Source: Burkholderiales bacterium (lineage in GTDB: Bacteria > Pseudomonadota > Gammaproteobacteria > Burkholderiales > Burkholderiaceae_C). From it: a stretch of 64,000 nucleotides of DNA. Below the pieces are notes generated by a model. The model made no database searches. It had not been told where the DNA came from and saw nothing but the letters and a program-made list of their open reading frames with translations. The stretch is taken from the NCBI GenBank assembly GCA_031380885.1, contig JANMXL010000064.1, positions 5,842 to 69,841 on the forward strand. Direction: 5' to 3'. Made by a program: the position numbers and the translations under genes. Below are positions 13,661-41,336 of the stretch, piece after piece; positions within the stretch are counted from its first letter, which is position 1; each line of letters starts with the position of its first letter.

Positions 13661-13663
13661 TCG

Positions 13664-16311: not shown

Positions 16312-16497
16312 CGGGTGCTCCTTCAATAGTGCCTCTGCGCAATGTGCGGGTCGGCGTGGTGAACACAAGAGGTGATTGTCTGCGGCCGCCGAACAGCTCG
16401 AAAAATCGGAAAAAACGCCCGATCGCTCTCACAATCGCGCTGCCGTTACCGAACGCTGCATCCTGCGGCTTTCGCTTCGGCCTGGGAGCCGCGCTCG

Positions 16498-17946
16498 ATG
16501 ACACACGCTTTGATCGTTGACGACGATGTGGATTCGGCGTCCACCCTGAAGGCGCTGATCATGGCCGAGCACTGCACCGTCGCCGTAGCCCACAACCTGC
16601 GCGATGCGCGGCGCCAAATCGTGTTGCAGCAACCGGAACTGGTGCTGCTCGATCTGCAACTGCCCGACGGCAATGGCCTGGACCTGTTCTCCGAGCCCGA
16701 GCTGCTGGCCGATTCCGAGGTGGTGCTGATCACCGGGCATGCCTCGCTGGACACCTCGATCCAGGCGCTGCGCCTTGGCGCGGCGGATTACCTGGTCAAG
16801 CCGATCAACCTTCGTCAACTGCAAGGCGTGCTGTCGCGGGTCACAAAGCCGGCGCTGTTGAAAGCCGAGGTCGAGACGCTGGCCGCGCAGGTGGCACCCA
16901 GCGGCCACTTCGGGGCGCTGTGGGGCCGCACGCCGGCGATGCTGCGGCTCTACGAGCAGATCGCCCGCGTGGCGCTGACCAGCGTCACCGTGTTTATTAC
17001 CGGCGAGAGCGGCAGCGGCAAGGAGGTGGTGGCGCAGACGGTGCATGACCTGAGCCGCCGCCGCAAGCAGCCTTTCCTCGCCGTCAACTGCGGTGCGATC
17101 TCGCCCAACCTGATCGAGAGCGAGATCTTCGGCCACGAGAAAGGCAGCTTCACCGGCGCCGACCGGCAGCACCTGGGCTTTTTCGAGCGCGCCAGCGGCG
17201 GCACGCTGTTTCTCGATGAAATCACCGAGATGCCGATGGAGCTGCAAGTCAAGCTGCTGCGCGTTCTGGAAACTGGCTGCTTCATGCGGGTGGGCTCGAC
17301 GCAGATGCAGGCGGCCGATGTGCGCGTGCTCGCCGCCACCAACCGCCGCCCGGATGAAGCGGTGGCCACCGGCAAGCTGCGCGAAGACCTGCTGTACCGG
17401 CTGAATGTGTTCCCGATCGAGCTGCCGCCGCTGCGTGATCGGCTCAGCGATGTGGGCCTGCTGGCGCAGCATTTCCTCAGCTCCTTCGGAGTGCAGGAAG
17501 GCCAGGCCAAGCACTTCAGCGCGGCTGCGCTCGAGCGGCTCGCGCAGTACCGCTGGCCGGGCAATGTGCGCGAGCTGCGCAACGCGGTGCAGCGCGCCTA
17601 TGTGATGGCTGCCGGTGACGTCATCGACGCGCAGTGGCTGCCGCAGCCGTCGCCCGCCGTTGTGGGCGCCATGGCGGGCGCCACCGCCTCGGTGACGCCG
17701 CTGCCCGCGGCGTCAGTGGCACGACGACCGGCCTCGGCATCGGACGAGGCGTTCGAACAGGAGTCGATCATGCTGCCCATCGGCACATCGCTGGCTTCGG
17801 CCGAGCGCACGCTGATCCTCGCCACCTTGCGCCACCACCATCACCAGAAGGAACGCACCGCCGCAGCGCTCGGCATCAGCCTGAAAACGCTCTACAACCG
17901 GCTCAAGGAATACGCCGCCGACGGCCTGGAGCATCCAGTGGCCTGA
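16498..17946 (+). CDS. sigma-54-dependent response regulator (REC, AAA+, Fis-type HTH)
   Basis: REC 'LIVDDD..LLDLQLPDGNG', Walker A 'GESGSGKE', sigma-54 contact loop 'GSFTGA', C-terminal HTH. No adjacent kinase. Confidence 0.9.
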   Translation: MTHALIVDDDVDSASTLKALIMAEHCTVAVAHNLRDARRQIVLQQPELVLLDLQLPDGNGLDLFSEPELLADSEVVLITGHASLDTSIQALRLGAADYLVKPINLRQLQGVLSRVTKPALLKAEVETLAAQVAPSGHFGALWGRTPAMLRLYEQIARVALTSVTVFITGESGSGKEVVAQTVHDLSRRRKQPFLAVNCGAISPNLIESEIFGHEKGSFTGADRQHLGFFERASGGTLFLDEITEMPMELQVKLLRVLETGCFMRVGSTQMQAADVRVLAATNRRPDEAVATGKLREDLLYRLNVFPIELPPLRDRLSDVGLLAQHFLSSFGVQEGQAKHFSAAALERLAQYRWPGNVRELRNAVQRAYVMAAGDVIDAQWLPQPSPAVVGAMAGATASVTPLPAASVARRPASASDEAFEQESIMLPIGTSLASAERTLILATLRHHHHQKERTAAALGISLKTLYNRLKEYAADGLEHPVA

Positions 17947-23909: not shown

Positions 23910-24008
23910 CGCAACGGTGTCGGAAGTGAATCAATTCGGCATGCGAGCCGTGTCGGCTCGCATGGCGCCCTCTGCAGTCATCGCAAGTCGCATCGGACCC
24001 CGACGATG

Positions 24009-24022
24009 GCAATTGTCGTTCC
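24009..24022 (-). promoter_or_regulatory. possible sigma-54-type core GGAACgacaaTTGC (minus strand), upstream of the hybrid kinase
   Basis: Correct spacing with a GGAAC -24 variant. A 10-bp-stem hairpin (23940..23964) lies in the would-be leader, which weakens the call. Confidence 0.3.
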
Positions 24023-24066
24023 CGGCCTGCACGCCGGTGCAGCGCGTGCAGGTCTTTCTCGTGGGG

Positions 24067-24954: not shown

Positions 24955-24981
24955 GGTGTGCTCCGGAAGTGCATGCAGGGG

Positions 24982-25368: not shown

Positions 25369-25448
25369 TCGGTGTCTCCATGAGGTGTTCGACATTGAGT
25401 GAACCTCTCAGGCAAGCGACGCGCCCACATCGCCAGCGTGATCGACCG

Positions 25449-25462
25449 GGAACAGTCTTTGC
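25449..25462 (+). promoter_or_regulatory. possible sigma-54-type core GGAACagtctTTGC
   Basis: Correct spacing with a GGAAC variant. 78 nt upstream of ATG 25540. Confidence 0.35.
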
Positions 25463-25539
25463 CACCCTGCGCGAGCACGGCTGTTGACATCTGCGCTTGC
25501 TTTTTTCTCCCACCCACCGCCCTTACTGAAAGCGATGCC

Positions 25540-25902
25540 ATGAAAGACGAACCGATCTACAACACCAGCCAGCCGTTCATGAAGCTGGTCCAGTCCAACA
25601 TGGAACTGGTCAACCAGATGATGCCGAAACCGGAAGCGCTGTCGAACTCGATTGCCACTGGTGGCAAGTCGCTGTATCAACCCTCCGCGTTGACGAGCCC
25701 CTTCAACCAGGGCGCAGCATTTGGTCAGATGATGCAATCGATGATCAGGAACTACGCCGTCTTTCTGACCGAGTGGGGTCAGTGCTCGATGAACGCCATC
25801 GTGCACAGCCAGCAGGCTTTCCAGCACAGCGCCCAGCAGGCCGCCGACATGGCAATCGAAGCAAGCCGCAGCGCCGAAAAAATCAGAGCCAAAGCGGCTT
25901 GA
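25540..25902 (+). CDS. hypothetical protein, possibly phasin-like
   Basis: 'PFMKLVQSNMELVNQMM' resembles phasin N-termini. This is a weak family call. Confidence 0.5.
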   Translation: MKDEPIYNTSQPFMKLVQSNMELVNQMMPKPEALSNSIATGGKSLYQPSALTSPFNQGAAFGQMMQSMIRNYAVFLTEWGQCSMNAIVHSQQAFQHSAQQAADMAIEASRSAEKIRAKAA

Positions 25903-25915
25903 CGGCCCGCGCTTT

Positions 25916-25940
25916 GAAGGCCACATCCGGTGTGGCCTTC
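25916..25940. terminator. hairpin terminator between convergent genes
   Basis: GAAGGCCACA-tccgg-TGTGGCCTTC. Confidence 0.5.
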
Positions 25941-25947
25941 GAGCGCC

Positions 25948-27609
25948 TCAAGTCGTCTCGACAGGCCCTGGCGGGGCCGCCGGTTGGCCGGTCACCGGCA
26001 GCGTGATCGTGAACTCGCTGCCCAGGCCCTGACCTTCGCTGTGCGCCCTGACACTGCCACCGTGGGCGGCCACAAGTTCGCGCACCACCGTCAGGCCCAG
26101 GCCGAGGCCGTTGCCGTTGAAGGCGGCGGCATGCGTGTCCTGCACGAACGGGTCGAAGATGTGCGGCAGCGTGCGTGGGCTGATGCCGATGCCGTTGTCG
26201 CGCACCGTCAGCACCACGCTGTCGCCCACAGTCGCCATCGTCAGCGTGATGACACCTGCAGAAGGCGTGTACTTCGAGGCGTTGTCGAGCAGGTTGCGCA
26301 GCACCTGGGCCAGCCGCATCGGGTCGCCGTTGAGCAACAGTTCAGCCGTGGGCATATGAATCACGAGCTGCTGCCGTCGCTTGTCCATTGCCGGACGGCA
26401 GCTGTCGACCACCTCTTCGATCAGCGCGTGCATGTCCAGCTGCTGCCGCTCCAGCCGCAGCTTGCCGCCGTTGATGCGCGACACATCCAGCAGGTCGCCG
26501 ACCAGCCGCGACAGCTGCGCCACCTGCCGCTCGATGACGGCATTCATTCGCGGCAACATCGGATCGCTGCTGCCGCTGCGGCCCATCACTGCCGACGCGG
26601 TGCGGATCGACATCAGCGGCGATCGCAATTCGTGCACCGCCCGCACCATGTTTTCGGTGTGCCGTTGCAGCGCACGTTCGGCGCTGGTCTGCGAGGCCTT
26701 GGCATCAAGGGCGCTCAGCAGCAGGTGCTCGTTGGCCTCCTGCAACTGCGCCTGCCGTTGGACTTGGTCGCCGGGTGTGTTCGGTGTCGACACCAGCGTT
26801 CGACGCATCGAATCGGGTGGTGCGGCCGGCGACTCCAGTTCGGCAAAGTTGCTCCGGTCAAAGAACATGCGGTGGCTCTGGTCGAGCCGCTTTGCGCGGT
26901 ACATCGCGGCATCGGCCCGGTCGATCAGCGTGCACGCCTCATCGCCGTCGTCGGGGAAGAGGCTGATGCCGATGCTCGCCTTCAGGCTCAGCACTCGCTC
27001 GCCGATGCGGGTGGGCCGCGCCAGCGCCAGGTTGATCTTGTCGGCGATGGCCGCCGCGTCGCTGGCCTGCGCCACCTCGTCCAGCAGGATCAGGAATTCG
27101 TCGCCGCCGTGCCGACTGACGGTGTCCGATGCCCGTACCGACTCCACCATGCAGCGGGCGGCCAGCTTCAGCACCTCGTCACCCAGGGCGTGCCCGAAGG
27201 TGTCGTTGATCTGCTTGAAATGGTCGAGGTCGAGAAACAGCAGCGCCATGCGGGCGTTGCGGCGCCGCTTGCCGGCAATCGCCTGCGTGAAGCGGTCGAG
27301 AAACAGCATGCGGTTGGGCAGCTGCGTCAGCGCGTCGAGCTCGGCGACGCGCGAGACTTCCATCAACGCGCGCATCGCGCCTTCGGCATCGGTCTTCGCC
27401 TGCAGCACCGAGATCACCAGCCGCTCATTGGCCTCTAGCAGGTCAGCCACATGCGTCGACTTCAGCTGTGCCGACGCCGCGACGACACAGGCCTGCAATT
27501 GCGCCAGCACCCCCCGCGTGTGGTCTACCTCGGCACGCAACTCGGTGAGCTCACGTGTGGCGCGAGCGATTGCAGCGTCTGCGTCGTCGGGAGGGGCCGG
27601 CGTGTTCAC
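25948..27609 (-). CDS. GGDEF diguanylate cyclase fused to a histidine kinase (coiled coil, GGDEF, HisKA, HATPase)
   Basis: 'RHGGDEFLILL' preceded by 'RASD' at I-site spacing. H-box 'VHELRSPL'. ATPase 'GNGLGLGL'. GTG 27609 chosen because it is 22 nt after the kaiC stop; the longer ORF would overlap kaiC by 176 nt. Confidence 0.8.
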   Translation of the reverse strand: MNTPAPPDDADAAIARATRELTELRAEVDHTRGVLAQLQACVVAASAQLKSTHVADLLEANERLVISVLQAKTDAEGAMRALMEVSRVAELDALTQLPNRMLFLDRFTQAIAGKRRRNARMALLFLDLDHFKQINDTFGHALGDEVLKLAARCMVESVRASDTVSRHGGDEFLILLDEVAQASDAAAIADKINLALARPTRIGERVLSLKASIGISLFPDDGDEACTLIDRADAAMYRAKRLDQSHRMFFDRSNFAELESPAAPPDSMRRTLVSTPNTPGDQVQRQAQLQEANEHLLLSALDAKASQTSAERALQRHTENMVRAVHELRSPLMSIRTASAVMGRSGSSDPMLPRMNAVIERQVAQLSRLVGDLLDVSRINGGKLRLERQQLDMHALIEEVVDSCRPAMDKRRQQLVIHMPTAELLLNGDPMRLAQVLRNLLDNASKYTPSAGVITLTMATVGDSVVLTVRDNGIGISPRTLPHIFDPFVQDTHAAAFNGNGLGLGLTVVRELVAAHGGSVRAHSEGQGLGSEFTITLPVTGQPAAPPGPVETT

Positions 27610-27631
27610 GTTTTGAATCCGGCCAGATGTC

Positions 27632-29170
27632 TCAGCGCGCTGGCTCTGGTGCGGTGGGCACGGGGTCGGCGCTGTGGGGCGCTGGTGAGCCCTTGCGGGT
27701 CGGGCGGCCGCCCAGCAGGCCTTCGTGATCGGGCAGCATGCTGCCGACGACGATGCCTCTGTCATCGATGACGAATTCGCGCAACTCGTCGGAGTGCGCG
27801 CTGGCACGCACCTTGACCACCGCCATCACGCGGCGCAGGCGGCTCGCGACCTCGATGTAGCGCTGCACGATGATCGCGTCGGTCATGAACGCCGTGCCAT
27901 ACGGGCTGAAGCGCAGGTCGGTGTAGCGGTCTTCCAGCTCCGAGGTCATCAGCACCGTGACGCCGACATCCGTCATGGCCTTGACCAGACGCGACAGCGA
28001 TTCACGGAAGTCTTCGCGGAAGGTCGGCGCCACCGACAGCTCGAAGCCCGACAGCGAGTCGATGACGACACGGGTGGCGCCGCGGCGGTGGATCTCTTCG
28101 AGCAGCAGCACGATGATCTCGTCGATCGACAGATCAGGCGCGCGGCTGTCGACCACGCCAACCAGACCGGCCTCGACCAGATCGGCAACCACCCGATTGC
28201 GCGAGCGATTCGGGTGCTGCTCGAACACCGCGATCACGCCAGCCTCGCCGAGGCGTGCGCCTTCGGCCAGGAAGGCGGCTGCCAGGATGCTCTTGCCCGA
28301 CCCCGATGGCCCGGCCACCAGCAGTGAGTAGCCGCGCGGCAAGCCGCCGCCCAGCATGTCGTCGAGCGCGGGCACGCCGGTCAGTGCTCGCTGTGGCGTG
28401 AAGTGCGCCGACCCGTTGGCGACGCCATTCGCTGTCATGGTGGCGCCAGCAATTGACCGCGCGGCGGGTGGCGCGAAGATGCGCACGCCGCCGCTGTCGA
28501 TGCGAAAGGTGTGCAGGCCCGGCAGAGTGGGCTGGCCGCGCATTTTCATGATTTCCATCTTGCGAACGACCGAGTTGCGCAGCGCGCTTTGGCGCAGCCA
28601 GATCAGCCCGTCGGCGACGGTGAACACCGGGTTCGCGTCGGTCTCGACGAAGTACTCGCCGAGCAGGAAGGTGGTGGCCTGCCAGCTCGTCATCAGCATG
28701 CCGAGCTGTTGCACGAACTGCTGCAGGTTGTTGTGCGGGCTCGGCACCTGGCTGGCCGATTCGCTGGCCAGGATCACCGAGCGGAACGAGTCGACGAACA
28801 CCAGCGCCGGGCTATGGGTGGTGACTTCCTCCACGATGCGGCGCAGCACGCGGTCGAGGTCGCCGACCATCGCTTCCTCGGACAGGTTGATGAAGCGGAT
28901 CGAGGTGTTGACCACTTCGTTGTCGAAAAAGCCGAATTGCTGTTGGTAACGCAGCATCTTCAGCGGCGGCTCGCCGAGCACGGTGAAGTACAGCGCCGGG
29001 CGCTCGGGCGTGGCCAGCGCGAACATGATCTGGTGCGCCAGCGTGGTCTTGCCGCAGCCGGGTTGGCCCGCGATCAGGTTGAACGAGAACTCGGGCAGCC
29101 CTCCGCCCAACACTTCGTCCAACCCCGGCACGCCGGTGGCCAGGCGGTTGATGGTCACTTTGGCACTCAT
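27632..29170 (-). CDS. kaiC: KaiC-family double-domain RecA-like ATPase
   Basis: Two KaiC domains with Walker A 'GQPGCGKTT' and 'GPSGSGKS'. 'GVPGLDEVLGGGLP' and 'GVPALDDMLGGGLP' repeats. 512 aa. Confidence 0.9.
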   Translation of the reverse strand: MSAKVTINRLATGVPGLDEVLGGGLPEFSFNLIAGQPGCGKTTLAHQIMFALATPERPALYFTVLGEPPLKMLRYQQQFGFFDNEVVNTSIRFINLSEEAMVGDLDRVLRRIVEEVTTHSPALVFVDSFRSVILASESASQVPSPHNNLQQFVQQLGMLMTSWQATTFLLGEYFVETDANPVFTVADGLIWLRQSALRNSVVRKMEIMKMRGQPTLPGLHTFRIDSGGVRIFAPPAARSIAGATMTANGVANGSAHFTPQRALTGVPALDDMLGGGLPRGYSLLVAGPSGSGKSILAAAFLAEGARLGEAGVIAVFEQHPNRSRNRVVADLVEAGLVGVVDSRAPDLSIDEIIVLLLEEIHRRGATRVVIDSLSGFELSVAPTFREDFRESLSRLVKAMTDVGVTVLMTSELEDRYTDLRFSPYGTAFMTDAIIVQRYIEVASRLRRVMAVVKVRASAHSDELREFVIDDRGIVVGSMLPDHEGLLGGRPTRKGSPAPHSADPVPTAPEPAR

Positions 29171-29601
29171 GTCGTCAAGTCCTTTGCGGTGGGGCCGCTC
29201 GAAGCAGCGGCCCACACGGAACGCAGCAATCGTTCAGTAAGAGATGGTCCGACCATGCTGACCAGCAGGTCGTGGAAAGTTTCGAAAAGCAGGGCCGCGC
29301 CGGCTGTGGCCTCCAAATGCGATTGCTGCTTGAACACCGAATTCAGGTCGGACAGATTGACCGATGCCAGCGCGTGGTCATGCACCTCCATCAGCCACGG
29401 ATGGCCCTGCGCCGCCACATACACACTGCGCTTGTAGAGGGCCGCGAAACCGCGCGGGCCAACGATGGGTGTCAAGGCCGCATCGATCTCCTGCCATGCC
29501 ACAACGACAGCATCAGCGAGCCGGCCGGCATCTGCATAGGCGCTCACGCGGTGTGCTAAAGGGGGGGCGAGCGAGCCACTCGCAGGGCTTTCCATAGACA
29601 T
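29167..29601 (-). CDS. hypothetical protein, first gene of the kaiC operon
   Basis: ATGA overlap with the kaiC start. No family recognised and not KaiA/KaiB-like. The start may be 29595, 29601 or 29706. Confidence 0.55.
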   Translation of the reverse strand: MSMESPASGSLAPPLAHRVSAYADAGRLADAVVVAWQEIDAALTPIVGPRGFAALYKRSVYVAAQGHPWLMEVHDHALASVNLSDLNSVFKQQSHLEATAGAALLFETFHDLLVSMVGPSLTERLLRSVWAAASSGPTAKDLTT

Positions 29602-29780
29602 GTCCAGTGAACGTTCCTCATGGAGAGAGTGATGGTATGCCCCGTTTGTGGCAATCGCGTTCCACAACTCGATCAGGCGGCCGCTGACGCCGGGCGGCCG
29701 CTTCATCGAGGCTGTCGCTCAAGGCCGTGCTGGCGTGACATGGGAGTGGCTTGGTAGAGAGGGTGCATTGCGCAATCTTG

Positions 29781-29794
29781 GCAAGCGGTGTGCC
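29781..29794 (-). promoter_or_regulatory. putative sigma-54 promoter core GGCACaccgcTTGC (minus strand), upstream of the kaiC operon
   Basis: Canonical GGCAC-N5-TTGC. 75 nt from ATG 29706, or 180 nt from 29601. Confidence 0.55.
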
Positions 29795-29798
29795 CAAT

Positions 29799-29814
29799 GG
29801 ACACCGCGGTGTCC
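29799..29814. promoter_or_regulatory. perfect 16-bp palindrome GGACACCGCGGTGTCC
   Basis: Read directly. Lies 5 bp upstream of the -24 element of the kaiC-operon promoter and 130 bp upstream of the rpoN promoter. Confidence 0.4.
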
Positions 29815-29943
29815 TGACCGGCAAGGCGTGAACGCGCCTGATCGGCAAAATTTACCGTAATGCAGGCCGCATCGGTAAGGCGACCCGAGTGGCCCGGCGA
29901 GCGGGCCTGTCGCTTGCCCGGGCAGTTGCGCCTGGCGCGGCAC

Positions 29944-29957
29944 GGCACGGGGGTTGC
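29944..29957 (+). promoter_or_regulatory. putative sigma-54 promoter core GGCACgggggTTGC, upstream of the rpoN copy
   Basis: Canonical spacing. 37 nt upstream of GTG 29994, with AGGAG at 29981-29985. Confidence 0.55.
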
Positions 29958-29993
29958 GAACGCTCGGTGCAGACCCCTTGAGGAGCGGCCGCT

Positions 29994-31457
29994 GTGGTGA
30001 CCCTGAATTTTCAAACCGATACCCGTCAAGTGCAAGCCCTGTCGCCGCGTTTCCAGCATGCGGTGCGGCTGCTGCAGCTGTCGTCGATGGACTTTGCTGC
30101 CACGGTGCGCGACGTGCTGGGCCAGAACCCGTTTCTGGAGATCGAGGACGGCGTGGCGGAGGGCGAGGGCGCCGACGTCGATGCGTTGGACGGTGACAGT
30201 GCTGAGGCCTTGGCTTCAGCTGCGATGCCGTTCGACGACCACGCGATGTCGTCGGACGCGGAGGGCCTTGCCGACGACCGCGGCGACGATCGCGACCTGT
30301 GGCTGGTCGAAGGCTCGTCGTCGCAGCGGCAGGCGGGCGATGGCGACGTGTCGGCGCTGGACCTGATGGCGGTTGATCTTCCGCTGAATGCGCACCTGAA
30401 TGCCCAGCTCGATCTGCAACCGTTGGCGACCCGCGAGCTGTGGATGGCGCGCGCCATCGTCGAATCGCTCGACGACGACGGCTACCTGCGCACCCCGCTG
30501 GCCGAGCTGTGCGAACTGGTACCGCTGAATCCACCGGTGGACGCCGCCGAGATGCAAACGGCCTTGCAGCGCGTGCAGGCGTTGGACCCGGCGGGCGTGG
30601 GCGCTCGCAGCGTGGCCGAATGCCTCACGCTGCAGCTGCCGGCGATCGAATGCCCGCTGCTGCGCGGGCTGGCTGAGCGCATCGTGACCGAGCACCTGAC
30701 GCTGCTGGCGGCGCGCGATGTGAACGCGCTGGCGCGTGCGCTCGGCGAACCGGCGTTGCGGGTGCAGCAGGCGTGCGATCGCATCCGCCGCTTCGATCCG
30801 CGGCCTGGCTGGCGTTTCAGCTCGATTCGCACCGCCTATGTGGTGCCCGATGTGGTGGTGAAAAAGGTGCGCGGCGAATGGCGGGTGCAGCTGAACCCGG
30901 CGGTGATCCCGCGGGTGCGCCTGAACCAGGTTTATGCCGCGCTGTTCAAGCGCCACCGCAGCACCGCCAACGCCGACATGGCCGGCCACCTGCAGGAAGC
31001 GCGCTGGACGGTGAAGAACGTCGAGCAACGCTTCTCGACCATCCTCGACGTGGCCGAAGCGATCGTCAAGCGGCAGCGTCACTTCCTGGAATTCGGGCCG
31101 ATGGCGATGAAGCCGCTGGGCCTGAAGGAGATCGCCGATGAACTCGGCATCCACGAGTCCACCGTTTCGCGGGTCACCAACAACAAATTTATCGCCACCC
31201 CCAGCGGTGTGTTCGAACTGAAGCATTTTTTCTCGCGGGTGATGGTCACGGCCAACGGCAGCGCCTGTTCGGGCACGGCCATCCGCGGGTTGCTGAAAGA
31301 CTTGATCGCCGCCGAGGCACCCGATGCGCCGCTGTCCGATGCCGAAATCACCCGGCAGCTGGCCCAGCAGGGGCTGGTGGTGGCGCGGCGCACCGTCACC
31401 AAATACCGTCAGCTGCTGCGCATCGACGCGGTGGGACGGCGCCGCCGCCAGGCCTGA
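29994..31457 (+). CDS. rpoN: RNA polymerase sigma-54 factor outside the canonical rpoN context (likely paralog)
   Basis: Region I 'RLLQLSSMDF', acidic region II, C-terminal RpoN box 'ARRTVTKYR'. No lptB/hpf/ptsN neighbours. Confidence 0.9.
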   Translation: MVTLNFQTDTRQVQALSPRFQHAVRLLQLSSMDFAATVRDVLGQNPFLEIEDGVAEGEGADVDALDGDSAEALASAAMPFDDHAMSSDAEGLADDRGDDRDLWLVEGSSSQRQAGDGDVSALDLMAVDLPLNAHLNAQLDLQPLATRELWMARAIVESLDDDGYLRTPLAELCELVPLNPPVDAAEMQTALQRVQALDPAGVGARSVAECLTLQLPAIECPLLRGLAERIVTEHLTLLAARDVNALARALGEPALRVQQACDRIRRFDPRPGWRFSSIRTAYVVPDVVVKKVRGEWRVQLNPAVIPRVRLNQVYAALFKRHRSTANADMAGHLQEARWTVKNVEQRFSTILDVAEAIVKRQRHFLEFGPMAMKPLGLKEIADELGIHESTVSRVTNNKFIATPSGVFELKHFFSRVMVTANGSACSGTAIRGLLKDLIAAEAPDAPLSDAEITRQLAQQGLVVARRTVTKYRQLLRIDAVGRRRRQA

Positions 31458-31479: not shown

Positions 31480-31493
31480 GGCACGTCGCTTGC
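31480..31493 (+). promoter_or_regulatory. putative sigma-54 promoter core GGCACgtcgcTTGC, upstream of the 31576-35336 operon
   Basis: Canonical GGCAC-N5-TTGC, 83 nt upstream of ATG 31576. Confidence 0.55.
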
Positions 31494-31575
31494 CATTAGT
31501 TACATCACCGGCGGCACCGTTTCGCTGTTGCAGCGCCGGACGGCTGTGCGCCGTGTGAACCTTGGAGCCACGTTT

Positions 31576-32166
31576 ATGAATATCGACATGAATCTGATCA
31601 AGCGCTGGCCGCGGCCGGTCTCGCTCGACATCGCGATCCACTACGAACGCAGCGTGCCGGATCGGCGCGCCTATCGCCTGGCGCCATGTGACGGCACGTC
31701 GCAAGTTCGGGTGCAGCTCCCGCAGCACGGCGCCATGCCGCTCGAAGTGCAGAGCATGGATTGGTCTCAGCTGCCGGGCAATACGCTGTATCTGCGCAGC
31801 CTCAGTGTGCTCGCCGTGCACCTGTTCGGCGCGGTGGCGATGCCGCCGCGTGTGTGCGGCGCACCGCTGTGGCAGCACATCAATGTTGGCATCTCGACCG
31901 ATGACCACAGCGCACACCCGCTGTATTTCGAGCTGGACGCCATCGACGACAGGCGCGCGGTGCTGCGTTACCGCTTTCAGCATCATCAGCCGCTGGTTCG
32001 CCGCGCGCTGGCTCTCGACCGGCTCGACGCCGACCCGTTACGTGCGCTGTTGCGTGTGGGAGCGACGCGCGTGCGCCCTGGTCTGACGCGAAACGCGGAG
32101 CCGATGCGCTCCGCGCCGCCGCCACGACACGTTCACGCGGCGGCCGACATGGCGCTGCGCGCGTGA
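31576..32166 (+). CDS. hypothetical protein
   Basis: ATG preceded by GGAG at 31564-31567. 196 aa. No family recognised. Confidence 0.55.
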   Translation: MNIDMNLIKRWPRPVSLDIAIHYERSVPDRRAYRLAPCDGTSQVRVQLPQHGAMPLEVQSMDWSQLPGNTLYLRSLSVLAVHLFGAVAMPPRVCGAPLWQHINVGISTDDHSAHPLYFELDAIDDRRAVLRYRFQHHQPLVRRALALDRLDADPLRALLRVGATRVRPGLTRNAEPMRSAPPPRHVHAAADMALRA

Positions 32167-32191
32167 GTGCAGCCACTGTGATCACGCGGCC

Positions 32192-32893
32192 ATGATTGCG
32201 GTCATCGTTCCGGTGCATAACGAGGAGGCGTACCTCGCCGCCTGCCTGCGTTCGGTACGCGAGGCCTCGCGGCGCCGGCGCCTGGACGGCGAGCCCGTGC
32301 TGCGGGTGGTGGTGCTCGACAACTGCAACGACGGCAGTGCGGACATCGCCCGCGTCTGCGGCGCCCACACGCTGCGCTTGCAGGCCTGCAACGTGGGCGC
32401 GGCACGGGCACTTGGTGCACAGTGGGCCATCGATCGAGGCGCACGCTGGTTGGCCTTCACCGATGCCGATTCAGTGGTTGCGCCCGAATGGTTGTCGTCA
32501 CAATTGGCGCTGCGCAGCGATGCGGTGTGTGGCACGGTCGCGGTCAGCAACTGGGGCGATTACGGTGAGCGCATGCGCCGCCATTACGACGCCACCTACA
32601 CCGATGCCGACGGCCACCATCACATCCACGGCGCGAATCTGGGCGTTAGCACGGCGGCGTACTGCCGCGCCGGGGGCTTTCAGCCGTTGACCAGCAGCGA
32701 AGACGTGGCGCTGGTGCGTGCGCTGCAAGCCAGCGGCGCTGCGATCGCCTGGTCAGCCGCGCCCCGCGTGACGACGAGTGCGCGGCAGCTCTACAAAGCG
32801 CCACTGGGCTTCGGAGCCACCCTGCAGCGCATCGATGCCGAGAGCCGGTACCGTGCCGAGGGCCGTGAAATAGGCGCTGCCACTGCGTCATGA
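32192..32893 (+). CDS. family 2 glycosyltransferase (short, soluble type)
   Basis: 'VIVPVHNEE', 'VLDNCNDGS' and 'FTDADS' (DxD). Confidence 0.85.
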   Translation: MIAVIVPVHNEEAYLAACLRSVREASRRRRLDGEPVLRVVVLDNCNDGSADIARVCGAHTLRLQACNVGAARALGAQWAIDRGARWLAFTDADSVVAPEWLSSQLALRSDAVCGTVAVSNWGDYGERMRRHYDATYTDADGHHHIHGANLGVSTAAYCRAGGFQPLTSSEDVALVRALQASGAAIAWSAAPRVTTSARQLYKAPLGFGATLQRIDAESRYRAEGREIGAATAS

Positions 32894-33972
32894 GCACCGC
32901 CAGTGCTGCCGTCAGGATGGTGTCGCCAACGCTGCTGATCCGCCTGCGCCGCGCGCTGGCCGATCAGGACCCGCAGGCTGAAGCTTGCGATCGGCTGAAC
33001 GCACTGGTGGCTGCTGGCTTCGGCGATTTGCCACAGCCTGGTGGCGGCCAGACGCTGCTGCGCTGGCAGGCGCTGGCGGCGGTCTCCGAACACGATCTGT
33101 CGCTGGGCAAACTGTATGAAGGCCACACCGATGCGCTTGCGGTGATGCGCGAGTTGGCGCTGGACCGCGACATCGCTGCCGACAGCACCTGGGGGATGTG
33201 GGCGGCCGAGGGATCTGGCGCGCGCGCCACGGTGAAGTCCCGGCCCGACGGCCGAGTGTCGCTGCACGGCGCCAAGACGTGGTGCTCGGGGGCGGCGCGC
33301 TTGAGCCATGGGCTGCTGACCGCCTGGCCCACGAATGATGTCGGGCCACAGCTGGTGCGCGTGGTCATGAATCAAGACGGGGTGACGGTTGATGGCAGCA
33401 CTTGGCGTGCTGTTGGCATGGCAGGCAGCGCCAGCGTGGATGTGTCGTTTTCAGGCGCGGTGGGTGATGCGGTCGGCGCACCCGGCGACTATCTGTCCCG
33501 GCCCGGCTTCTGGCAGGGCGGCGCGGGCATCGCGGCGTGCTGGTACGGCGGGGCGCGCGCGCTCGGCGTGGCGCTGCGCCACTCGGTCGCGCGCACGACC
33601 GACGCCACCCGCAGCCTGTTCGGCCCCTTGGCGGTCGGCCGTGTCGATGTGGCGCTGCACAGCACCGCGGCGCTGCTGCGCGATGCGGCGCAATGGATAG
33701 ACGCCCATCCGCTGGCCGATGCCAGTGAGGTGGCGCTGCGCACCCGGCTCGCGGCCGAGTTGTGCGCCAAGGTGTTGCTGGACGAGGCAGGTCGTGCCCT
33801 GGGCGCCGCGGCCTACTGTCGCGACCGGCACTTTGCACGCATGGCCGCTGATTTGCCGGTGTTCGTGCGGCAAAGCCATGCCGAGCGGGACTTCGCCGCA
33901 CTGGGCGAGCGGGTGGCGGCACCGCTGCCAGCCTCCCGCCATGGCACCGACGACAGCCCATGGGCGCTCTGA
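32890..33972 (+). CDS. acyl-CoA dehydrogenase-like protein
   Basis: ACAD-like middle and C-terminal pattern ('GAKTWCSGA', 'GGAGIAACWYGGA'). 4-nt overlap with the GT2 gene. Confidence 0.7.
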   Translation: MSTASAAVRMVSPTLLIRLRRALADQDPQAEACDRLNALVAAGFGDLPQPGGGQTLLRWQALAAVSEHDLSLGKLYEGHTDALAVMRELALDRDIAADSTWGMWAAEGSGARATVKSRPDGRVSLHGAKTWCSGAARLSHGLLTAWPTNDVGPQLVRVVMNQDGVTVDGSTWRAVGMAGSASVDVSFSGAVGDAVGAPGDYLSRPGFWQGGAGIAACWYGGARALGVALRHSVARTTDATRSLFGPLAVGRVDVALHSTAALLRDAAQWIDAHPLADASEVALRTRLAAELCAKVLLDEAGRALGAAAYCRDRHFARMAADLPVFVRQSHAERDFAALGERVAAPLPASRHGTDDSPWAL

Positions 33973-34721
33973 CCGCTCGACGTGCCATCGAAGGCGTCGG
34001 CTGCACCGAATCGGTGTGGCGCGAGTGGCTGGATGCCCTGGACGTGCCGACGCTGGCGTGGAACGACTGGCTGCCCGCAACGGCACGGCTGGTGGTGGTT
34101 GCGCCGCACCCCGACGACGAGGTGCTGGCCTGCGGCGCGCTGCTGGCGATGCATGCGGCGCGCGGTGGTGAGTGCTGCGTCGTGGCGGTCACTGACGGCG
34201 AAGGCAGCCACCCCGGATCGAAGCGGTGGACCCCCCAGCAGCTGACAGCTGTTCGCCGCGCCGAAAGAGCCGAAGGCCTGCTGCGGCTCGGCCTGGGTGG
34301 CGCGTCGCTGCATGGCCTGGGGCTGCCTGACGGTGCGGTGCAGACACAGGCCGACGTGCTCCGATTGCGCCTGACCGACTTGTTGCGGCCTGCCGATGTG
34401 GTGGTCACCACCTGGCCGCTCGACGGCCACCCCGACCACGATGCCTGCGGTGCCGCCGCCGTGCAGACCTGCGCTGCCGTGGGGTGCCGCTTGCTCACTG
34501 CGCCGGTGTGGATGTGGCATTGGGCCGCGCCCGGGGATGCGCGTGTGCCCTGGCATCGGCTGCGCGCGCTGCAAGTCGATTCGGCAGCGCTGCAGCGCAA
34601 GCAGGCGGCACTGGAGGCGCATGTGTCGCAGCGCACCGCGCGGGAAGGCGGGCAGGGCCCGGTGCTCGGCGCTGAAATCCTGGCCCGGGCGGCACGCGAG
34701 CGCGAATACTTTTTCGTTTGA
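33960..34721 (+). CDS. PIG-L/LmbE-family deacetylase
   Basis: 'VVAPHPDDEVLACG' Zn motif and 'HPDHDA'. Confidence 0.85.
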   Translation: MGALTARRAIEGVGCTESVWREWLDALDVPTLAWNDWLPATARLVVVAPHPDDEVLACGALLAMHAARGGECCVVAVTDGEGSHPGSKRWTPQQLTAVRRAERAEGLLRLGLGGASLHGLGLPDGAVQTQADVLRLRLTDLLRPADVVVTTWPLDGHPDHDACGAAAVQTCAAVGCRLLTAPVWMWHWAAPGDARVPWHRLRALQVDSAALQRKQAALEAHVSQRTAREGGQGPVLGAEILARAAREREYFFV

Positions 34722-34736
34722 ACCGAGGCCGCCACG

Positions 34737-35336
34737 ATGTCGCACACACCTGCCTATTTCGACTCGATGTTCCATGCCGACAGCGATCCGTGGAAGTTCC
34801 GCACGCGCTGGTACGAGGTGCGCAAACGCGCACTCACCCTGGCGTGCTTGCCGAAGTCTCACTACGACGCGGCCTACGAGCCGGGTTGCGCCAACGGCGA
34901 GCTGTCGGCCGCGTTGTCCGAGCGTTGCTCGCGCCTGCTCGTTTCCGATGGGTCGGCCCCGGCGGTGCAGTTGGCCCGACAACGCCTGGCGGGGCTTGCG
35001 CATGTTGAAGTGCGGCAGGCCTGGGTGCCGACGCAATGGCCAGACGAGCAGTTCGACCTGATCGTCATCAGCGAGCTGGCCTACTTTCTGACCGCCGGCG
35101 CACTGGACGCCATGATCGGAAAAATCAAGGCGTCCCTGAGTTCGGGCGGCACCGTGTTGGCGTGCCATTGGCGACGGCGCAGCGACGACTGCGAATTCAG
35201 CGGTGACCGGCTGCACCGCCAGCTGGGCAGCGGGCTCGGTTTGCCGCACCTGAGCCGCTTGATCGAGCCCGATGTGCGCGTCGATGTGTGGAGCGCCGAC
35301 CCGCGCTCGGTGGCGCAGCAGGAGGGTTTCGCGTGA
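34737..35336 (+). CDS. class I SAM-dependent methyltransferase (NodS-like)
   Basis: 'YFDSMFHADSDPWKFRTRWYEVRKR' N-terminus and 'EPGCANGELS' motif I. Confidence 0.85.
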   Translation: MSHTPAYFDSMFHADSDPWKFRTRWYEVRKRALTLACLPKSHYDAAYEPGCANGELSAALSERCSRLLVSDGSAPAVQLARQRLAGLAHVEVRQAWVPTQWPDEQFDLIVISELAYFLTAGALDAMIGKIKASLSSGGTVLACHWRRRSDDCEFSGDRLHRQLGSGLGLPHLSRLIEPDVRVDVWSADPRSVAQQEGFA

Positions 35337-35345
35337 TGCGCCCGG

Positions 35346-36095
35346 CTACAGGCTCAGCAGCTGTGACAGCAACGCGTTGACCTGAGATTGCGCGCCGAGC
35401 CGAAAGCGCGCGCAGCTGCTTGTGCCCACCGGCGCGATGCGCACGCTGACGCAGCCCGCACCGGCGCGGGCGAACGCCGGCTCGTCGTTCACGTCATCGC
35501 CAACGATCAAGGCGTTCGGTGCGCCGCATTCGTGCATCAGCTGCACCAGCGCGTCACCCTTGTTCGGCGCATTTGACGGGGTGATGTTCAGCACACTGTG
35601 GCCGTGTGCCGCGGCGATGCCGGGCCCGTGCGCTGCGGTCAGGCTGTCGAGCCAGCGGCGCACCGAGGCGACGTCTGCCGATCGCCGGTAGTGCCATGCC
35701 AGTGATGCGCCCTTGTCTTCGACATCGACGCCGCGCTCATCGAACACCCGGGCCCACTGCCGCGCCTGCTCGCGACAGCCGGCGAGCGCGTGGTGCGGTG
35801 CCGGGAATGAGGTGCTGCCGGCCCGCTCGGCACCGTGATTGCCCACCAGGAAGCGCGGCTCGAAGCCGAGGCGAAGCCGGGCGTCGGCCACCGCCCGACC
35901 GGTGATCACTGCCACCGGCCAGCGCCGCGCCAGCGCTTGCAGCCGTGCGGCGGTGATGCGCGAGACCGCCGCATCGCTCGGCCGCATGACGAGCGGTGCC
36001 AGTGTGCCGTCGAGGTCGAAGGCAAGCAACGCATGCCTGTGGCTGAGTCGCCGCAAGGCCCGCAGCCCTTGCGGTGAGAAGAGCGATGCGGTCAT
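35346..36095 (-). CDS. otsB: trehalose-phosphatase
   Basis: 'LAFDLDGTLAP' HAD motif and 'VGDDVNDEPAF'. ATGA overlap with otsA. Confidence 0.85.
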   Translation of the reverse strand: MTASLFSPQGLRALRRLSHRHALLAFDLDGTLAPLVMRPSDAAVSRITAARLQALARRWPVAVITGRAVADARLRLGFEPRFLVGNHGAERAGSTSFPAPHHALAGCREQARQWARVFDERGVDVEDKGASLAWHYRRSADVASVRRWLDSLTAAHGPGIAAAHGHSVLNITPSNAPNKGDALVQLMHECGAPNALIVGDDVNDEPAFARAGAGCVSVRIAPVGTSSCARFRLGAQSQVNALLSQLLSL

Positions 36096-37681
36096 GTCCC
36101 CGTCATGGTCTGCGCATGGCGGTGGTGCGGCGCGTGGTGAGCCAAGCTGGTCGGGTGGTGCGATGCATCGAGCGGATGCTGCGCCGTGGCCTCCTGCAGC
36201 AGGCTTGCCGCCCAGTGCTCTGCACTGTGCCGCTGCACCGTGGCGCGCAGGGCGAGCATCCGCGCGTGCTGCTCCGCGGGCAGCATGGTCAGCCCCTGGT
36301 GCAGGGCCTCGGCCACCTGCGCCAAGTGGTAAGGATTCACACACAGCGCGTCGATCAACTCGGCCGCCGCACCGGCGTGTTCACTGAGCACCAGCACCCC
36401 TTGTTTGTCGTCACGTGCGGCGATGAATTCCTTGCAGACCAGGTTCATGCCGTCGTGCAGCGGGGTGACCAGGCAGACGTCAGCGGCACGGTAGGCGGCT
36501 GTCACGGCGACGCGGTCATGGCAGGTGTCCAGCAGCAACACCGGTGTCCACCCCGGCCGCACATAGCGCGCGTTGATGCGTGCGACTTCGTCGTGCACCT
36601 CCGCCTGGAACGCGGAATACGCGGGCAGTGTCGACCGGGTGGGTGCGGCGATCTGCACGAAGCGCAGTCGGCCTACCCATTCGGGATGCCTGACCAGCAG
36701 CTGCTCGACCGCACGCAGCCGCTCGATCAGGCCTTTGGTGTAGTCGAAACGGTCGATGCCGACGATCAGCTTGCCGCCCACCGGCACCGACCAGCGCTGC
36801 GCAGCTTCGCGCCGGCTGTGCGCAACGGTCGGCATCGCCCCCACCTGTGCTGCAGTCGGCCAGGCGACCGACACCGCACAGTCGCGCACCTCGGTGAGCG
36901 AGCCCGCACGTTCCACTGGCCCGCTGACATCGGCGTCTAGCTGCAAACCGGCGCGCTGCACGCTGGCGTTGAAGTGATGCCTGTGAGTGGCCGTCTGGAA
37001 AGCCAGCGTGTCGCAGCCCAGCAATCCGGCAATCAGCTCACTCAGCCACGGGCAGATTTCCATTTGTTCCGGGTGTCCCCACGGGATGTGCCAGAAGCCC
37101 AGAATCCGCGCCTGCGGCAGGCGCTGCCGCACCAGCGCAGGGACCAGCGCGAGCTGGTAGTCGTGGACCCAGACGATCGGGTTGGCTCGCTGCGCTTCGT
37201 GCACCACCGCATCGGCGAAGCGCTGGTTCACGCGGCGATAGACAGCCCAGTCACTGTCGGTGAACGTCGGGCGCACATGAACCATGTGACACAAGGGCCA
37301 CAACCCGCTGTTGGCGGCGCCGTCGCGGTAGCCGCGCTGCTCGTCGGCGCTGAGCCACAGATAACGCAACCGATAGCCGCCGAATAGATGCCCCGCGGTG
37401 GTGACTTGCCAGGTGTCGTCGGCGTCGGTGAATTGGCGGTCGGCATTGCCGCTGCCGTGGGCAATCCAGGTCCGGCTGCCGGCACCTCTTTGCATCACCG
37501 GCTCGATGGCGCTGACCAGACCGCTGGCCGGCTGCACCGCCTGAACGCCGTCACCTGCACGTTGAAGCGACCACGGTGCGCGGTCGGAGACGACGATCAG
37601 TTGCCGGTCGGGCAGCGTCGTGCCGGGCAAATGTCGCCATGGCGAACTGGCGGCTCGGGTCGTCTCGGCAAAGCGCGTCAT
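36092..37681 (-). CDS. otsA: alpha,alpha-trehalose-phosphate synthase (GT20)
   Basis: '[12 protein letters not shown]' and 'GMNLVCKEF' motifs. Start moved to 'MTRFAETT'. Confidence 0.9.
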
Positions 37682-38012: not shown

Positions 38013-38339
38013 TCAGCGGGCGCGGCGCAATAGGTCGCGTCGGCGAGTGTCGTCCAGTCCGGCGGTCGCGCGCAGATCGGTGTCGACCAGGCCCGCGTCC
38101 AGGTCCTTCTTCGCCTGCACCATCACATCCTGCGGGTGTGGGTTGACTTCGCCGGGCCTCTCATCGCGTTCGCTGGGCATCGGCAACCGTTGACCGTCCT
38201 GGGCCGGACGGGATCCTGGTGCGGTGGGCGACCGGGCCACGCCGACATGGGCGTTGGGCTTTTGGGTCCGCGCCGATCGTTTGGCTGGCGGGGCCGAGTT
38301 GACGGTGGTGGGAGGCTGCGGTGCGGTCTGGCGTTTCAT
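38013..38339 (-). CDS. hypothetical small basic/Pro-rich protein
   Basis: The C-terminal 'DVMVQAKKDLDAGLVDTDLR' looks like a conserved small-protein tail. No family name known to me. Confidence 0.5.
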   Translation of the reverse strand: MKRQTAPQPPTTVNSAPPAKRSARTQKPNAHVGVARSPTAPGSRPAQDGQRLPMPSERDERPGEVNPHPQDVMVQAKKDLDAGLVDTDLRATAGLDDTRRRDLLRRAR

Positions 38340-40519: not shown

Positions 40520-40533
40520 GGCACGCCGTTTGC
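40520..40533 (+). promoter_or_regulatory. putative sigma-54 promoter core GGCACgccgtTTGC, upstream of the Crp/Fnr-family gene
   Basis: Canonical GGCAC-N5-TTGC, 51 nt upstream of ATG 40584. Confidence 0.55.
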
Positions 40534-40583
40534 CGATGGGTGGCATGAAATGCCTTTGCGAATCTCCTCCTCGACGCTTTGCG

Positions 40584-41336
40584 ATGCCGATCCCGATGCC
40601 GCTGCACAGCGCGGCGCTGGACATCAGCCAGAGTGCCCACAGGAACGGCCTGCTGGCGCGGTTGCCCGAGGCGGCGTGGCAGCGCTGGCTGCCACAGCTC
40701 GAATGGGTCGACCTGCCGCAGGGCCACGTGCTGCATGAATCGGGCACGTCGCTCGCGCACGCCTACTTCCCGACCACCGCCATCGTGTCGCTGCTCAATG
40801 TGACGCAGGACGGCGCTTCGACTGAGATCGCTGCGGTCGGCAATGAAGGCGTGGTCGGGGTGTCACTGTTCATGGGCGGGGTGTCGGCCTGCAGCCGTGC
40901 CGTCGTTCAAAGCGCCGGCTTCGGGTTGCGGCTGAAGGCGCATGCGATGCGCGCCGAGTTCGAACGTTCCTCGGAAGTGATGCAGGTGCTTCTGCGCTAC
41001 ACCCAGGCCCTGATGACGCAGATGGGGCAGACGGCGGTGTGCAATCGCCACCACTCGATCGACCAGCAGCTGTGCCGCTGCCTCCTGCTGAACCTGGACC
41101 GGCTGGGCGGCAACGAGATCGTGATGACGCACGAGCTGATCGCAGGCACCCTGGGCGTGCGCCGCGAAGGCGTTACCGAGACGGCGCTGAAGTTGCAAGC
41201 GGCCGGATTGATCCGCTATGCGCGCGGGCACATCACCGTGCTCGACCGTGGTGGTCTGGAGCGCCGCGCCTGTGAGTGCTATTCGGTGGTGAGAAAGGAA
41301 TACGACAGCCTTCTGACCGACCAACTGGCAGCCTGA
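40584..41336 (+). CDS. Crp/Fnr-family transcriptional regulator
   Basis: cNMP-binding-like N-terminus and C-terminal HTH 'HELIAGTLGVRREGVTE'. This is the C-terminal part of an artefactually long ORF. Confidence 0.85.
   Translation: MPIPMPLHSAALDISQSAHRNGLLARLPEAAWQRWLPQLEWVDLPQGHVLHESGTSLAHAYFPTTAIVSLLNVTQDGASTEIAAVGNEGVVGVSLFMGGVSACSRAVVQSAGFGLRLKAHAMRAEFERSSEVMQVLLRYTQALMTQMGQTAVCNRHHSIDQQLCRCLLLNLDRLGGNEIVMTHELIAGTLGVRREGVTETALKLQAAGLIRYARGHITVLDRGGLERRACECYSVVRKEYDSLLTDQLAA

What the first reader, a model, noticed from the sequence alone, without database searches (positions are those of the whole stretch)
31480..35336. Sigma-54-promoted five-gene operon: unknown protein, GT2, acyl-CoA-dehydrogenase-like, PIG-L deacetylase, NodS-like methyltransferase
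The genes are translationally coupled. GT2 and the ACAD-like gene overlap by 4 nt. The ACAD-like and PIG-L genes overlap by 13 nt. The other two gaps are 25 and 15 nt. The operon is preceded by GGCACgtcgcTTGC, directly downstream of the rpoN copy. The enzyme set suggests a pathway: make a glycoside, N-deacetylate it (PIG-L enzymes act on GlcNAc conjugates such as mycothiol, bacillithiol and GPI precursors), then N-methylate it (NodS-type enzyme), with an acyl-chain-modifying flavoprotein. This formally resembles Nod-factor or thiol-cofactor tailoring, but no product is known to me for this gene set. It ends 9 nt from the convergent trehalose genes otsBA, so a stress-induced small glycoconjugate or compatible solute is a reasonable guess. 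The first gene (31576-32166) has no recognisable domain.
Basis: inference. Interest (0 to 1): 0.7.

Follow-up and report, generated by a model that had tools for sequence, protein, structure and literature searches.

The report
Stress-linked amino-sugar cassette behind sigma-54 promoter
The five genes are real and probably co-transcribed, but they are two units joined together: a sigma-54-driven orphan gene from a regulatory island, followed by a widespread, uncharacterised four-enzyme cassette that repeatedly sits beside trehalose and catalase stress genes and probably makes an unknown modified amino-sugar compound.

Summary
All five ORFs, their overlaps and gaps, the domain calls and the GGCACGtcgcTTGC motif are at the stated coordinates.

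The interpretation needs revision in three ways.

1. Gene 1 and the sigma-54 promoter do not belong to the enzyme set. Gene 1 follows the rpoN paralog in all 9 lineages examined. Only 2 of those carry the full cassette, 1 has a deletion remnant and 5 have none. Gene 1 is absent from all 80 other cassette loci, and those loci show no sigma-54 motif enrichment.

2. The four enzymes (GT2, ACAD-fold protein, PIG-L, NodS-like methyltransferase) form a self-contained cassette. It occurs in at least 503 species-representative genomes of Proteobacteria and Actinobacteria, in two gene orders. In Cellulomonas, PIG-L and the methyltransferase are fused. The cassette lies next to otsBA, treY/glgX or katE in independent arrangements.

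3. The "acyl-CoA dehydrogenase" lacks the catalytic glutamate. Its closest solved relatives are the oxygenases DszC, KijD3 and DnmZ, so it is more likely a heteroatom oxygenase than an acyl-chain enzyme.

I found no published function. The proposed chemistry (glycosylate, de-N-acetylate, oxidise, methylate) is inference only.

The parts
31480..31493 (+). Sigma-54-type promoter (-24 GG / -12 GC) of g1. The predicted transcript start is near 31505, giving a 5' UTR of about 70 nt.
   Evidence: Exact core GGCACGN4TTGC. It is an invariant block in 6 lineages while the flanks diverge.
31576..32166 (+). g1: an orphan 196-aa soluble protein. Residues 170-196 are a disordered tail. It is tied to the rpoN paralog, not to the enzymes.
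   Evidence: No Pfam or NCBIfam hit. 41 relatives. 32 cluster representatives among 1.84 billion proteins. AF2 pLDDT 84 with no PDB match (best E = 5e-3, TM 0.19). Context.
32192..32893 (+). Small soluble GT2 (GT-A fold) glycosyltransferase, first gene of the cassette.
   Evidence: PF00535, E = 2e-17. D91-A92-D93 is invariant in 80 orthologs. No TM segment.
32890..33972 (+). ACAD-fold flavoenzyme, probably a heteroatom oxygenase rather than an acyl-CoA dehydrogenase.
   Evidence: Profile against PDB: TdsC/DszC 8e-9, MsuC, DnmZ. Foldseek top hit KijD3 at 3.5e-11. R-Q-S-H replaces the ACAD I-Y-E-G.
33960..34721 (+). PIG-L/LmbE-family metal-dependent de-N-acetylase.
   Evidence: PF02585, E = 5e-28. 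H50-P-D-D-E and H157-x-D-H are invariant, including in fused forms. Nearest structures are TT1542, diacetylchitobiose deacetylase and MshB.
34737..35336 (+). NodS-like class I SAM methyltransferase.
   Evidence: PF05401, E = 8e-12. PDB 4ISC at 1e-46 and NodS 3OFJ at 8.5e-8. SAM motif G303-C-x-x-G and D324 are invariant.
35346..37681 (-). otsB (35346-36095) and otsA (36092-37681), convergent on the cassette. They belong to the same variable block.
   Evidence: Pfam. Gene calls on L081. Present or absent together with the cassette in g1 lineages.
29944..31457 (+). rpoN paralog (29994-31457) with its own conserved sigma-54-type promoter (29944-29957).
40520..41336 (+). Third conserved sigma-54-type promoter (40520-40533) and a Crp-family regulator gene. 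In relatives that lack the cassette, this gene directly follows g1.
   Evidence: Contexts.
16363..17946 (+). NtrC-type enhancer-binding protein (REC, sigma-54 interaction domain, HTH_8). It is a candidate activator of the three promoters.
   Evidence: A similar gene sits at the matching position in L085.

Best explanation
The region is a composite transcription unit.

(a) The promoter and g1. The sigma-54 promoter and g1 belong to a conserved signalling island: a KaiC-like ATPase, a GGDEF-histidine kinase, an rpoN paralog, g1 and a Crp-family regulator. The last three each have a conserved sigma-54 promoter, and an NtrC-type activator lies nearby.

(b) The variable block. In this lineage a block of four enzyme genes plus otsBA lies between g1 and the next island gene, 25 nt after g1 with no terminator. 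The enzymes are therefore most likely read through from the g1 promoter (inferred).

(c) The cassette. The four enzymes form an autonomous, widely distributed cytoplasmic cassette associated with general-stress, osmotic and desiccation genes.

Proposed chemistry (inferred, low confidence):
1. GT2 puts an N-acetylhexosamine on an unknown small acceptor.
2. PIG-L removes the acetyl group and exposes the amine.
3. The ACAD-fold enzyme acts as a flavin-dependent oxygenase on that amine or another heteroatom.
4. The NodS-like enzyme methylates it.

The product would be an unknown modified aminoglycoside-type metabolite deployed together with trehalose.
For: Composite architecture:
- g1 follows the rpoN paralog in 9 of 9 distinct lineages.
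- The full cassette is present in 2 of them (the window and L088).
- L093 keeps GT2 plus a 75-aa remnant of the ACAD-like N-terminus.
- L084-L087 and L092 have no cassette.
- g1 is absent from all 80 cassette loci.
- The three sigma-54 promoters are conserved.
- Other cassettes show no sigma-54 motif enrichment.

Cassette as a unit:
- At least 503 genome matches.
- Gene orders: GAPM in 39 loci, APMG in 22 and APM in 7.
- It is present in Acinetobacter, Streptomyces, Kitasatospora and Cellulomonas.
- Many PIG-L::MT fusions exist.

Stress link:
- glgX/treY lie directly upstream on the same strand in 8 Pseudomonas loci.
- katE lies directly upstream in 7 loci.
- otsBA is adjacent in 5 loci plus an Acinetobacter plasmid.
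- Other neighbours are cls, CsbD, YqjD, DUF892 and BON-domain genes.

Enzymes look active: catalytic motifs are invariant.

Oxygenase reading. The K-x-W-C-S-G stretch aligns with K-x-F-C-S-G of TdsC and DszC.
Against: - No transcript data, so co-transcription from the g1 promoter is inferred.
- Canonical ACADs follow closely in Foldseek (E about 1e-9) and have slightly higher TM-scores, 0.72-0.76 against 0.70. The oxygenase assignment therefore rests on weak profile hits and a missing Glu.
- The cassette encodes no flavin reductase.
- GT2 is missing or detached in about 10% of loci, so it may not supply the substrate.
- PIG-L enzymes also act on non-sugar amides.
- Most cassette loci (about 67 of 80) have no trehalose gene within the fetched flanks.
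- Donor, acceptor and product are all unknown.
Confidence: 0.55

Rival explanations
1. A dedicated five-gene sigma-54 operon makes a glycoside that is de-N-acetylated, N-methylated and given a modified acyl chain, like a Nod factor.
For: Tight coupling and the promoter. NodS-family hit. ACAD fold.
Against: g1 and the promoter separate from the enzymes in other genomes. The catalytic Glu is absent. No acyltransferase, NodA, NodB or NodC is present. The GT2 is a 233-aa soluble protein. The NodS equivalog score is 55.8 against a cutoff of 300.
Confidence: 0.08
2. The cassette tailors trehalose, trehalose-6-phosphate or alpha-glucan itself, for example making an amino- or N-methylamino-glycosylated derivative. 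It would then be an extension of the trehalose pathway.
For: It lies next to two different trehalose routes: otsBA in Comamonadaceae and Acinetobacter, and treY/glgX in Pseudomonas with gaps of 27-99 nt on the same strand.
Against: Most loci have no trehalose genes nearby. katE and other general-stress genes are equally frequent neighbours, which fits co-regulation as well as a shared substrate.
Confidence: 0.2
3. The cassette makes or modifies a low-molecular-weight thiol or redox cofactor of the bacillithiol/mycothiol type. The DszC-like enzyme would act on sulfur.
For: PIG-L is closest to BshB and MshB among named families. The ACAD-fold relatives DszC and MsuC are sulfur oxygenases. katE is a frequent neighbour.
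Against: No Cys ligase and no GT4 are present. BshB and MshB equivalog scores are far below their cutoffs, 49 against 182 and 28 against 224.
Confidence: 0.1
4. The cassette modifies an envelope component (LPS, EPS or a lipid head group), or it detoxifies or modifies an exogenous amino-sugar compound such as an antibiotic.
For: GT2 shows weak similarity to EPS and polyprenyl-phosphate glycosyltransferases. Cardiolipin synthase is a neighbour in 9 loci. The cassette is plasmid-borne in Acinetobacter and Pandoraea. PIG-L relatives deacetylate teicoplanin.
Against: All proteins lack TM segments. No flippase, polymerase or exporter is conserved, and no neighbour family occurs in more than 8 of 80 loci in the clustering.
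Confidence: 0.12

Closest known systems
MshA/MshB (mycothiol), BshA/BshB (bacillithiol), PIG-A/PIG-L (GPI)
   Same: A glycosyltransferase is paired with a PIG-L-family zinc de-N-acetylase. The H-P-D-D and H-x-x-H motifs are conserved.
   Different: Here the transferase is GT2, not GT4. There is no Cys ligase. An ACAD-fold enzyme and a methyltransferase are added. Equivalog scores are far below their cutoffs.
NodC/NodB/NodS steps of Nod-factor synthesis
   Same: GT2, then de-N-acetylation, then a NodS-family methyltransferase (Pfam NodS above cutoff; NodS structure 3OFJ at 8.5e-8).
   Different: The GT2 is small, soluble and unlikely to be processive. The deacetylase has the PIG-L fold, not the NodB type. 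There is no NodA. The context is stress genes, not nod genes.
ACAD-fold flavin monooxygenases: DszC/TdsC, MsuC, and the amino-sugar N-oxygenases KijD3, DnmZ and ORF36
   Same: Best profile and Foldseek matches. Shared K-x-[FW]-C-S-G stretch. No ACAD catalytic Glu.
   Different: Only 15-19% identity. The protein is shorter, at 345-360 aa. No reductase partner is in the cassette. Canonical ACADs score almost as well structurally.
PDB 4ISC, deposited only as 'Methyltransferase'
   Same: Ortholog of the cassette methyltransferase: 1e-46 to the window protein and 4e-60 to a Pseudomonas cassette copy.
   Different: No function is attached to the entry name, so it adds a structure but no chemistry.

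Membership tests
Sigma-54-dependent promoter | GG and GC elements 10 nt apart, matching TGGCACG-N4-TTGCW | tested here: met
   The core GGCACGtcgcTTGC is exact. The two flanking consensus bases mismatch.
Sigma-54-dependent promoter | Conserved in orthologous intergenic regions | tested here: met
   Invariant block in 6 lineages.
Sigma-54-dependent promoter | Sigma-54 and an enhancer-binding protein are available | tested here: met
   rpoN at 29994-31457. bEBP at 16363-17946.
Sigma-54-dependent promoter | Mapped transcript start and dependence on rpoN | not testable with these tools
   Needs RNA data.
Glycosyltransferase family 2 (GT-A) | Pfam PF00535 above cutoff and a DXD motif | tested here: met
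   63.9 bits against a cutoff of 23.3. D91-A-D93 is invariant in 80 sequences.
PIG-L / LmbE deacetylase | PF02585 above cutoff; metal and catalytic motifs H-P-D-D and H-x-x-H | tested here: met
   98.7 bits against a cutoff of 28.2. The motifs are invariant.
BshB / MshB equivalogs | NCBIfam score above the curated cutoff | tested here: not met
   49.3 against 182.5 for BshB1; 27.6 against 224 for MshB.
NodS | Pfam NodS family membership | tested here: met
   45.8 bits against a cutoff of 24.
NodS | NodS equivalog score and a nodABC context | tested here: not met
   55.8 against 300. No nod genes were seen in any locus examined.
Acyl-CoA dehydrogenase | Pfam N-terminal, middle and C-terminal ACAD domains above cutoff | tested here: not met
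   Only the middle domain is found, at 24.9 bits against a cutoff of 33.3.
Acyl-CoA dehydrogenase | Catalytic glutamate in the Y-E-G motif | tested here: not met
   V-F-V-R-Q-S-H aligns to the position of ACAD V-F-T-I-Y-E-G. The CarC alignment ends at VFT, and the continuation I-Y-E-G is from my knowledge of ACADs. R-Q-S-H is conserved in at least 93% of 88 sequences.
Acyl-CoA dehydrogenase | ACAD three-domain fold | tested here: met
   AF2 pLDDT 82. Foldseek TM 0.7-0.76 to ACAD-fold proteins.
ACAD-fold (group D) flavin monooxygenase | Closer to DszC and KijD3 than to dehydrogenases | tested here: inconclusive
   These are the top hits by profile and by Foldseek, but the margins are small.
ACAD-fold (group D) flavin monooxygenase | Partner flavin reductase; O2-dependent activity | not testable with these tools
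   No reductase is in the cassette. Biochemistry is needed.

The most novel reading that the evidence does not exclude
The four-enzyme cassette makes a previously unknown N-oxidised and/or N-methylated amino-sugar glycoside. This compound would serve alongside trehalose as a widespread stress or desiccation protectant, or as an antioxidant, in Proteobacteria and Actinobacteria, including Acinetobacter baumannii and plant-associated Pseudomonas. In this lineage it would have been placed under a dedicated sigma-54-paralog/KaiC-like regulatory island.
Probability: 0.25. Interest if true: 0.8.

Novelty: new variant of a known kind. Interest (0 to 1): 0.55.

Why it matters
An uncharacterised enzyme cassette found in hundreds of species keeps turning up beside trehalose and catalase genes. 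The species include a hospital pathogen known for surviving drying and several plant-associated bacteria. That pattern points to a missing stress metabolite.

The work gives concrete handles for finding it:
- tractable hosts for deletion;
- a solved methyltransferase structure (4ISC);
- predicted intermediates for each single-gene mutant.

It also corrects the routine 'acyl-CoA dehydrogenase' annotation. Separately, it identifies a small regulon of three conserved sigma-54 promoters around an rpoN paralog.

Tried and rejected
- Literature: all ten full-text searches found nothing on this gene set. The terms covered enzyme-name combinations, PSPTO and A1S locus tags, Acinetobacter desiccation and older JGI product names. 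The P. aeruginosa PIG-L protein DnpA is in a different locus. The A1S_2216-2218 hits returned biofilm and pellicle papers that I did not read; from my own knowledge these tags are the csu pili operon, not the cassette. Freeman 2010 is not held, so my recollection that P. syringae PSPTO_3131-3134 are this cassette is unverified.
- Loose sigma-54 consensus with 2 mismatches: not enriched. I replaced it with the exact core plus conservation.
- g1: no hit by Pfam or NCBIfam and no hit by Foldseek against the PDB.
- A universal neighbour of the cassette: none found. The largest neighbour family covers 8 of 80 loci.
- A sigma-54 motif upstream of other cassettes: none above background.
- Look-up of fusion protein P0233: not on record.


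Full report
**1. The observation**

The window is 66.7% G+C. Five + strand ORFs lie at 31576-32166 (g1), 32192-32893 (GT2), 32890-33972 (ACAD-like), 33960-34721 (PIG-L) and 34737-35336 (methyltransferase). Independent gene calls on public contigs that carry the same locus agree.

Pfam confirms GT2 (2e-17), PIG-L (5e-28) and NodS-family (8e-12). The "ACAD" call rests on the middle domain only, and that hit is below Pfam's cutoff. g1 matches nothing. Upstream is a complete sigma-54 gene. Downstream are otsB and otsA. None of the five proteins has a hydrophobic segment.

**2. The promoter is real but belongs to a regulatory island**

A loose consensus search is not enriched. The exact core GGCACGN4TTGC occurs three times against 0.64 expected. 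All three copies are intergenic and lie just upstream of + strand genes:
- the rpoN paralog (29944);
- g1 (31480);
- a Crp-family regulator (40520).

Each copy is the conserved block in alignments of 6 to 8 lineages whose flanks have diverged. An NtrC-type enhancer-binding protein lies at 16363-17946. No terminator-like or sigma-70-like site lies between 31480 and 35336. Read-through from the g1 promoter into the enzyme genes is therefore likely, but it is inferred.

**3. g1 is not part of the enzyme set**

g1 belongs to a very small family: 41 relatives and 32 cluster representatives among 1.84 billion proteins. Its confident model (pLDDT 84, disordered tail from residue 170) has no PDB match.

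In every context recovered, g1 directly follows the rpoN paralog. That paralog sits divergent from an operon of an unknown gene, a KaiC-like ATPase and a GGDEF-histidine kinase. The table shows what follows g1 in each distinct lineage.

| Lineage | What follows g1 |
|---|---|
| Window (L081-83), L088 | Four enzymes plus otsBA |
| L093 | GT2 and a 75-aa remnant of the ACAD-like N-terminus, then Crp/tolB |
| L084, L092 | Crp directly |
| L085-L087 | The PAS kinase |

Conversely, none of the 80 other loci that carry the enzymes has g1. Only 2 of 78 have a sigma-54-like motif upstream, below the 3.9% background. The enzymes plus otsBA are therefore a variable block inside the island. The block was gained in one clade and later lost, wholly or partly, in some members.

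**4. The four enzymes are an autonomous, widespread cassette**

The ACAD-like protein has thousands of relatives and at least 503 confirmed matches among species-representative genomes. In the best 80 loci the genes stay together in the orders shown below.

| Gene order | Loci |
|---|---|
| GT2-ACAD-PIGL-MT | 39 |
| ACAD-PIGL-MT-GT2 | 22 |
| ACAD-PIGL-MT only | 7 |

The same cassette occurs in several other groups:
- on Acinetobacter plasmids and the A. baumannii chromosome;
- in Pandoraea;
- in Streptomyces and Kitasatospora;
- in Cellulomonas, where PIG-L and the methyltransferase are one 452-aa protein flanked by the ACAD-like gene and GT2.

Many such fusions exist, and NCBI names at least one of them [quoted passage not shown]. 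Catalytic motifs are invariant: DXD in GT2, H-P-D-D and H-x-D-H in PIG-L, and the SAM motif in the methyltransferase.

**5. Context points to stress**

No neighbour is universal, but the recurrent ones share a theme:
- glgX and treY directly upstream on the same strand in 8 Pseudomonas loci (gaps 27-99 nt);
- catalase HPII directly upstream in 7 loci;
- otsBA adjacent in 5 loci;
- cardiolipin synthase in 9 loci.

An Acinetobacter ursingii plasmid carries a catalase, DUF2171, the cassette, an MFS transporter and otsA-otsB together. Pandoraea has CsbD and YqjD nearby. Two betaproteobacterial loci have DUF892 and BON-domain genes, with an rpoN paralog within 6 kb. The cassette thus lies next to two different trehalose routes in separate lineages, which is unlikely by chance. 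It fits either co-regulation or a shared substrate.

**6. The "acyl-CoA dehydrogenase" is probably an oxygenase**

A family profile finds TdsC/DszC (8e-9), MsuC and the nitrososynthase DnmZ. Only one dehydrogenase appears, at 0.006. The K-x-W-C-S-G stretch aligns with K-x-F-C-S-G of TdsC and DszC.

The AF2 model (pLDDT 82) hits the amino-sugar N-oxygenase KijD3 first (3.5e-11), then TdsC and DnmZ. Canonical dehydrogenases follow within one order of magnitude and have slightly higher TM-scores.

In the C-terminal domain, V-F-V-R-Q-S-H aligns where dehydrogenases have V-F-T-I-Y-E-G (the I-Y-E-G continuation is from my knowledge of ACADs). R-Q-S-H is conserved in at least 93% of 88 sequences. The catalytic glutamate is therefore absent. 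I put the oxygenase reading at about 0.55.

**7. Proposed mechanism (inference)**

1. GT2 makes a HexNAc glycoside of an unknown cytoplasmic acceptor.
2. PIG-L exposes the amine.
3. The ACAD-fold enzyme oxidises it, or another heteroatom.
4. The NodS-like enzyme methylates it.

The fusion and the fixed order ACAD-PIGL-MT suggest these three act consecutively. GT2 is more loosely attached. Confidence is high for the architecture, moderate for the stress role and low for the chemistry.

**8. Comparison with known systems and novelty**

The glycosyltransferase-plus-PIG-L logic is shared with mycothiol, bacillithiol and GPI synthesis. The GT2, deacetylase and NodS order formally mirrors Nod-factor synthesis. 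Equivalog scores fail for all of these, and their other defining genes are absent.

The methyltransferase has a solved ortholog, 4ISC, deposited only as "Methyltransferase". Ten literature searches found no assigned function. I rate this a new variant of a known kind, of moderate interest.

Noticed in passing
window 22029-31457; also L084-L088, L092, L093: A conserved island: hybrid histidine kinase, OmpA/DUF4398, DUF4398, GGDEF-histidine kinase, double-domain KaiC-like ATPase and an unknown 140-180-aa protein (29167-29706, no Pfam hit). It is divergent from an rpoN paralog. Some relatives add hemerythrin or catalase.
   Followed up: partly
window 40520-40547: The third conserved sigma-54 motif has its -12 GC at 40532-40533. 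A conserved in-frame ATGAARTGC starts at 40545, about where transcription should start. The Crp-family gene may therefore be translated from a leaderless mRNA, starting 39 nt upstream of the start called on public contigs.
   Followed up: partly
window 29944-29957: The rpoN paralog itself has a conserved sigma-54-type promoter, which suggests autoregulation or control by the housekeeping sigma-54.
   Followed up: partly
L093 7617-8533: A relative keeps GT2 and a 75-aa fragment matching the N-terminus of the ACAD-like protein, followed directly by Crp and tolB. This is a deletion scar and shows that the cassette, otsBA and kinase block can be lost.
   Followed up: yes
L091 8986-13279 (A. baumannii chromosome): The cassette lies between the gabT-gabD-gabP genes and a YgiW/BOF gene plus a BLUF photoreceptor gene. 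The BLUF gene may be blsA (my inference). No literature on these genes was found.
   Followed up: partly
window 38013-38339 (- strand): A 108-aa ORF with no domain hit lies between the PAS hybrid kinase and otsA on the same strand. It is also called on public contigs and present in L088.
   Followed up: no
window 13661-14095 and 47935-51840: A PIN-domain gene, and a 1301-aa AsmA/DUF748 protein. Both are unrelated to the finding.
   Followed up: no
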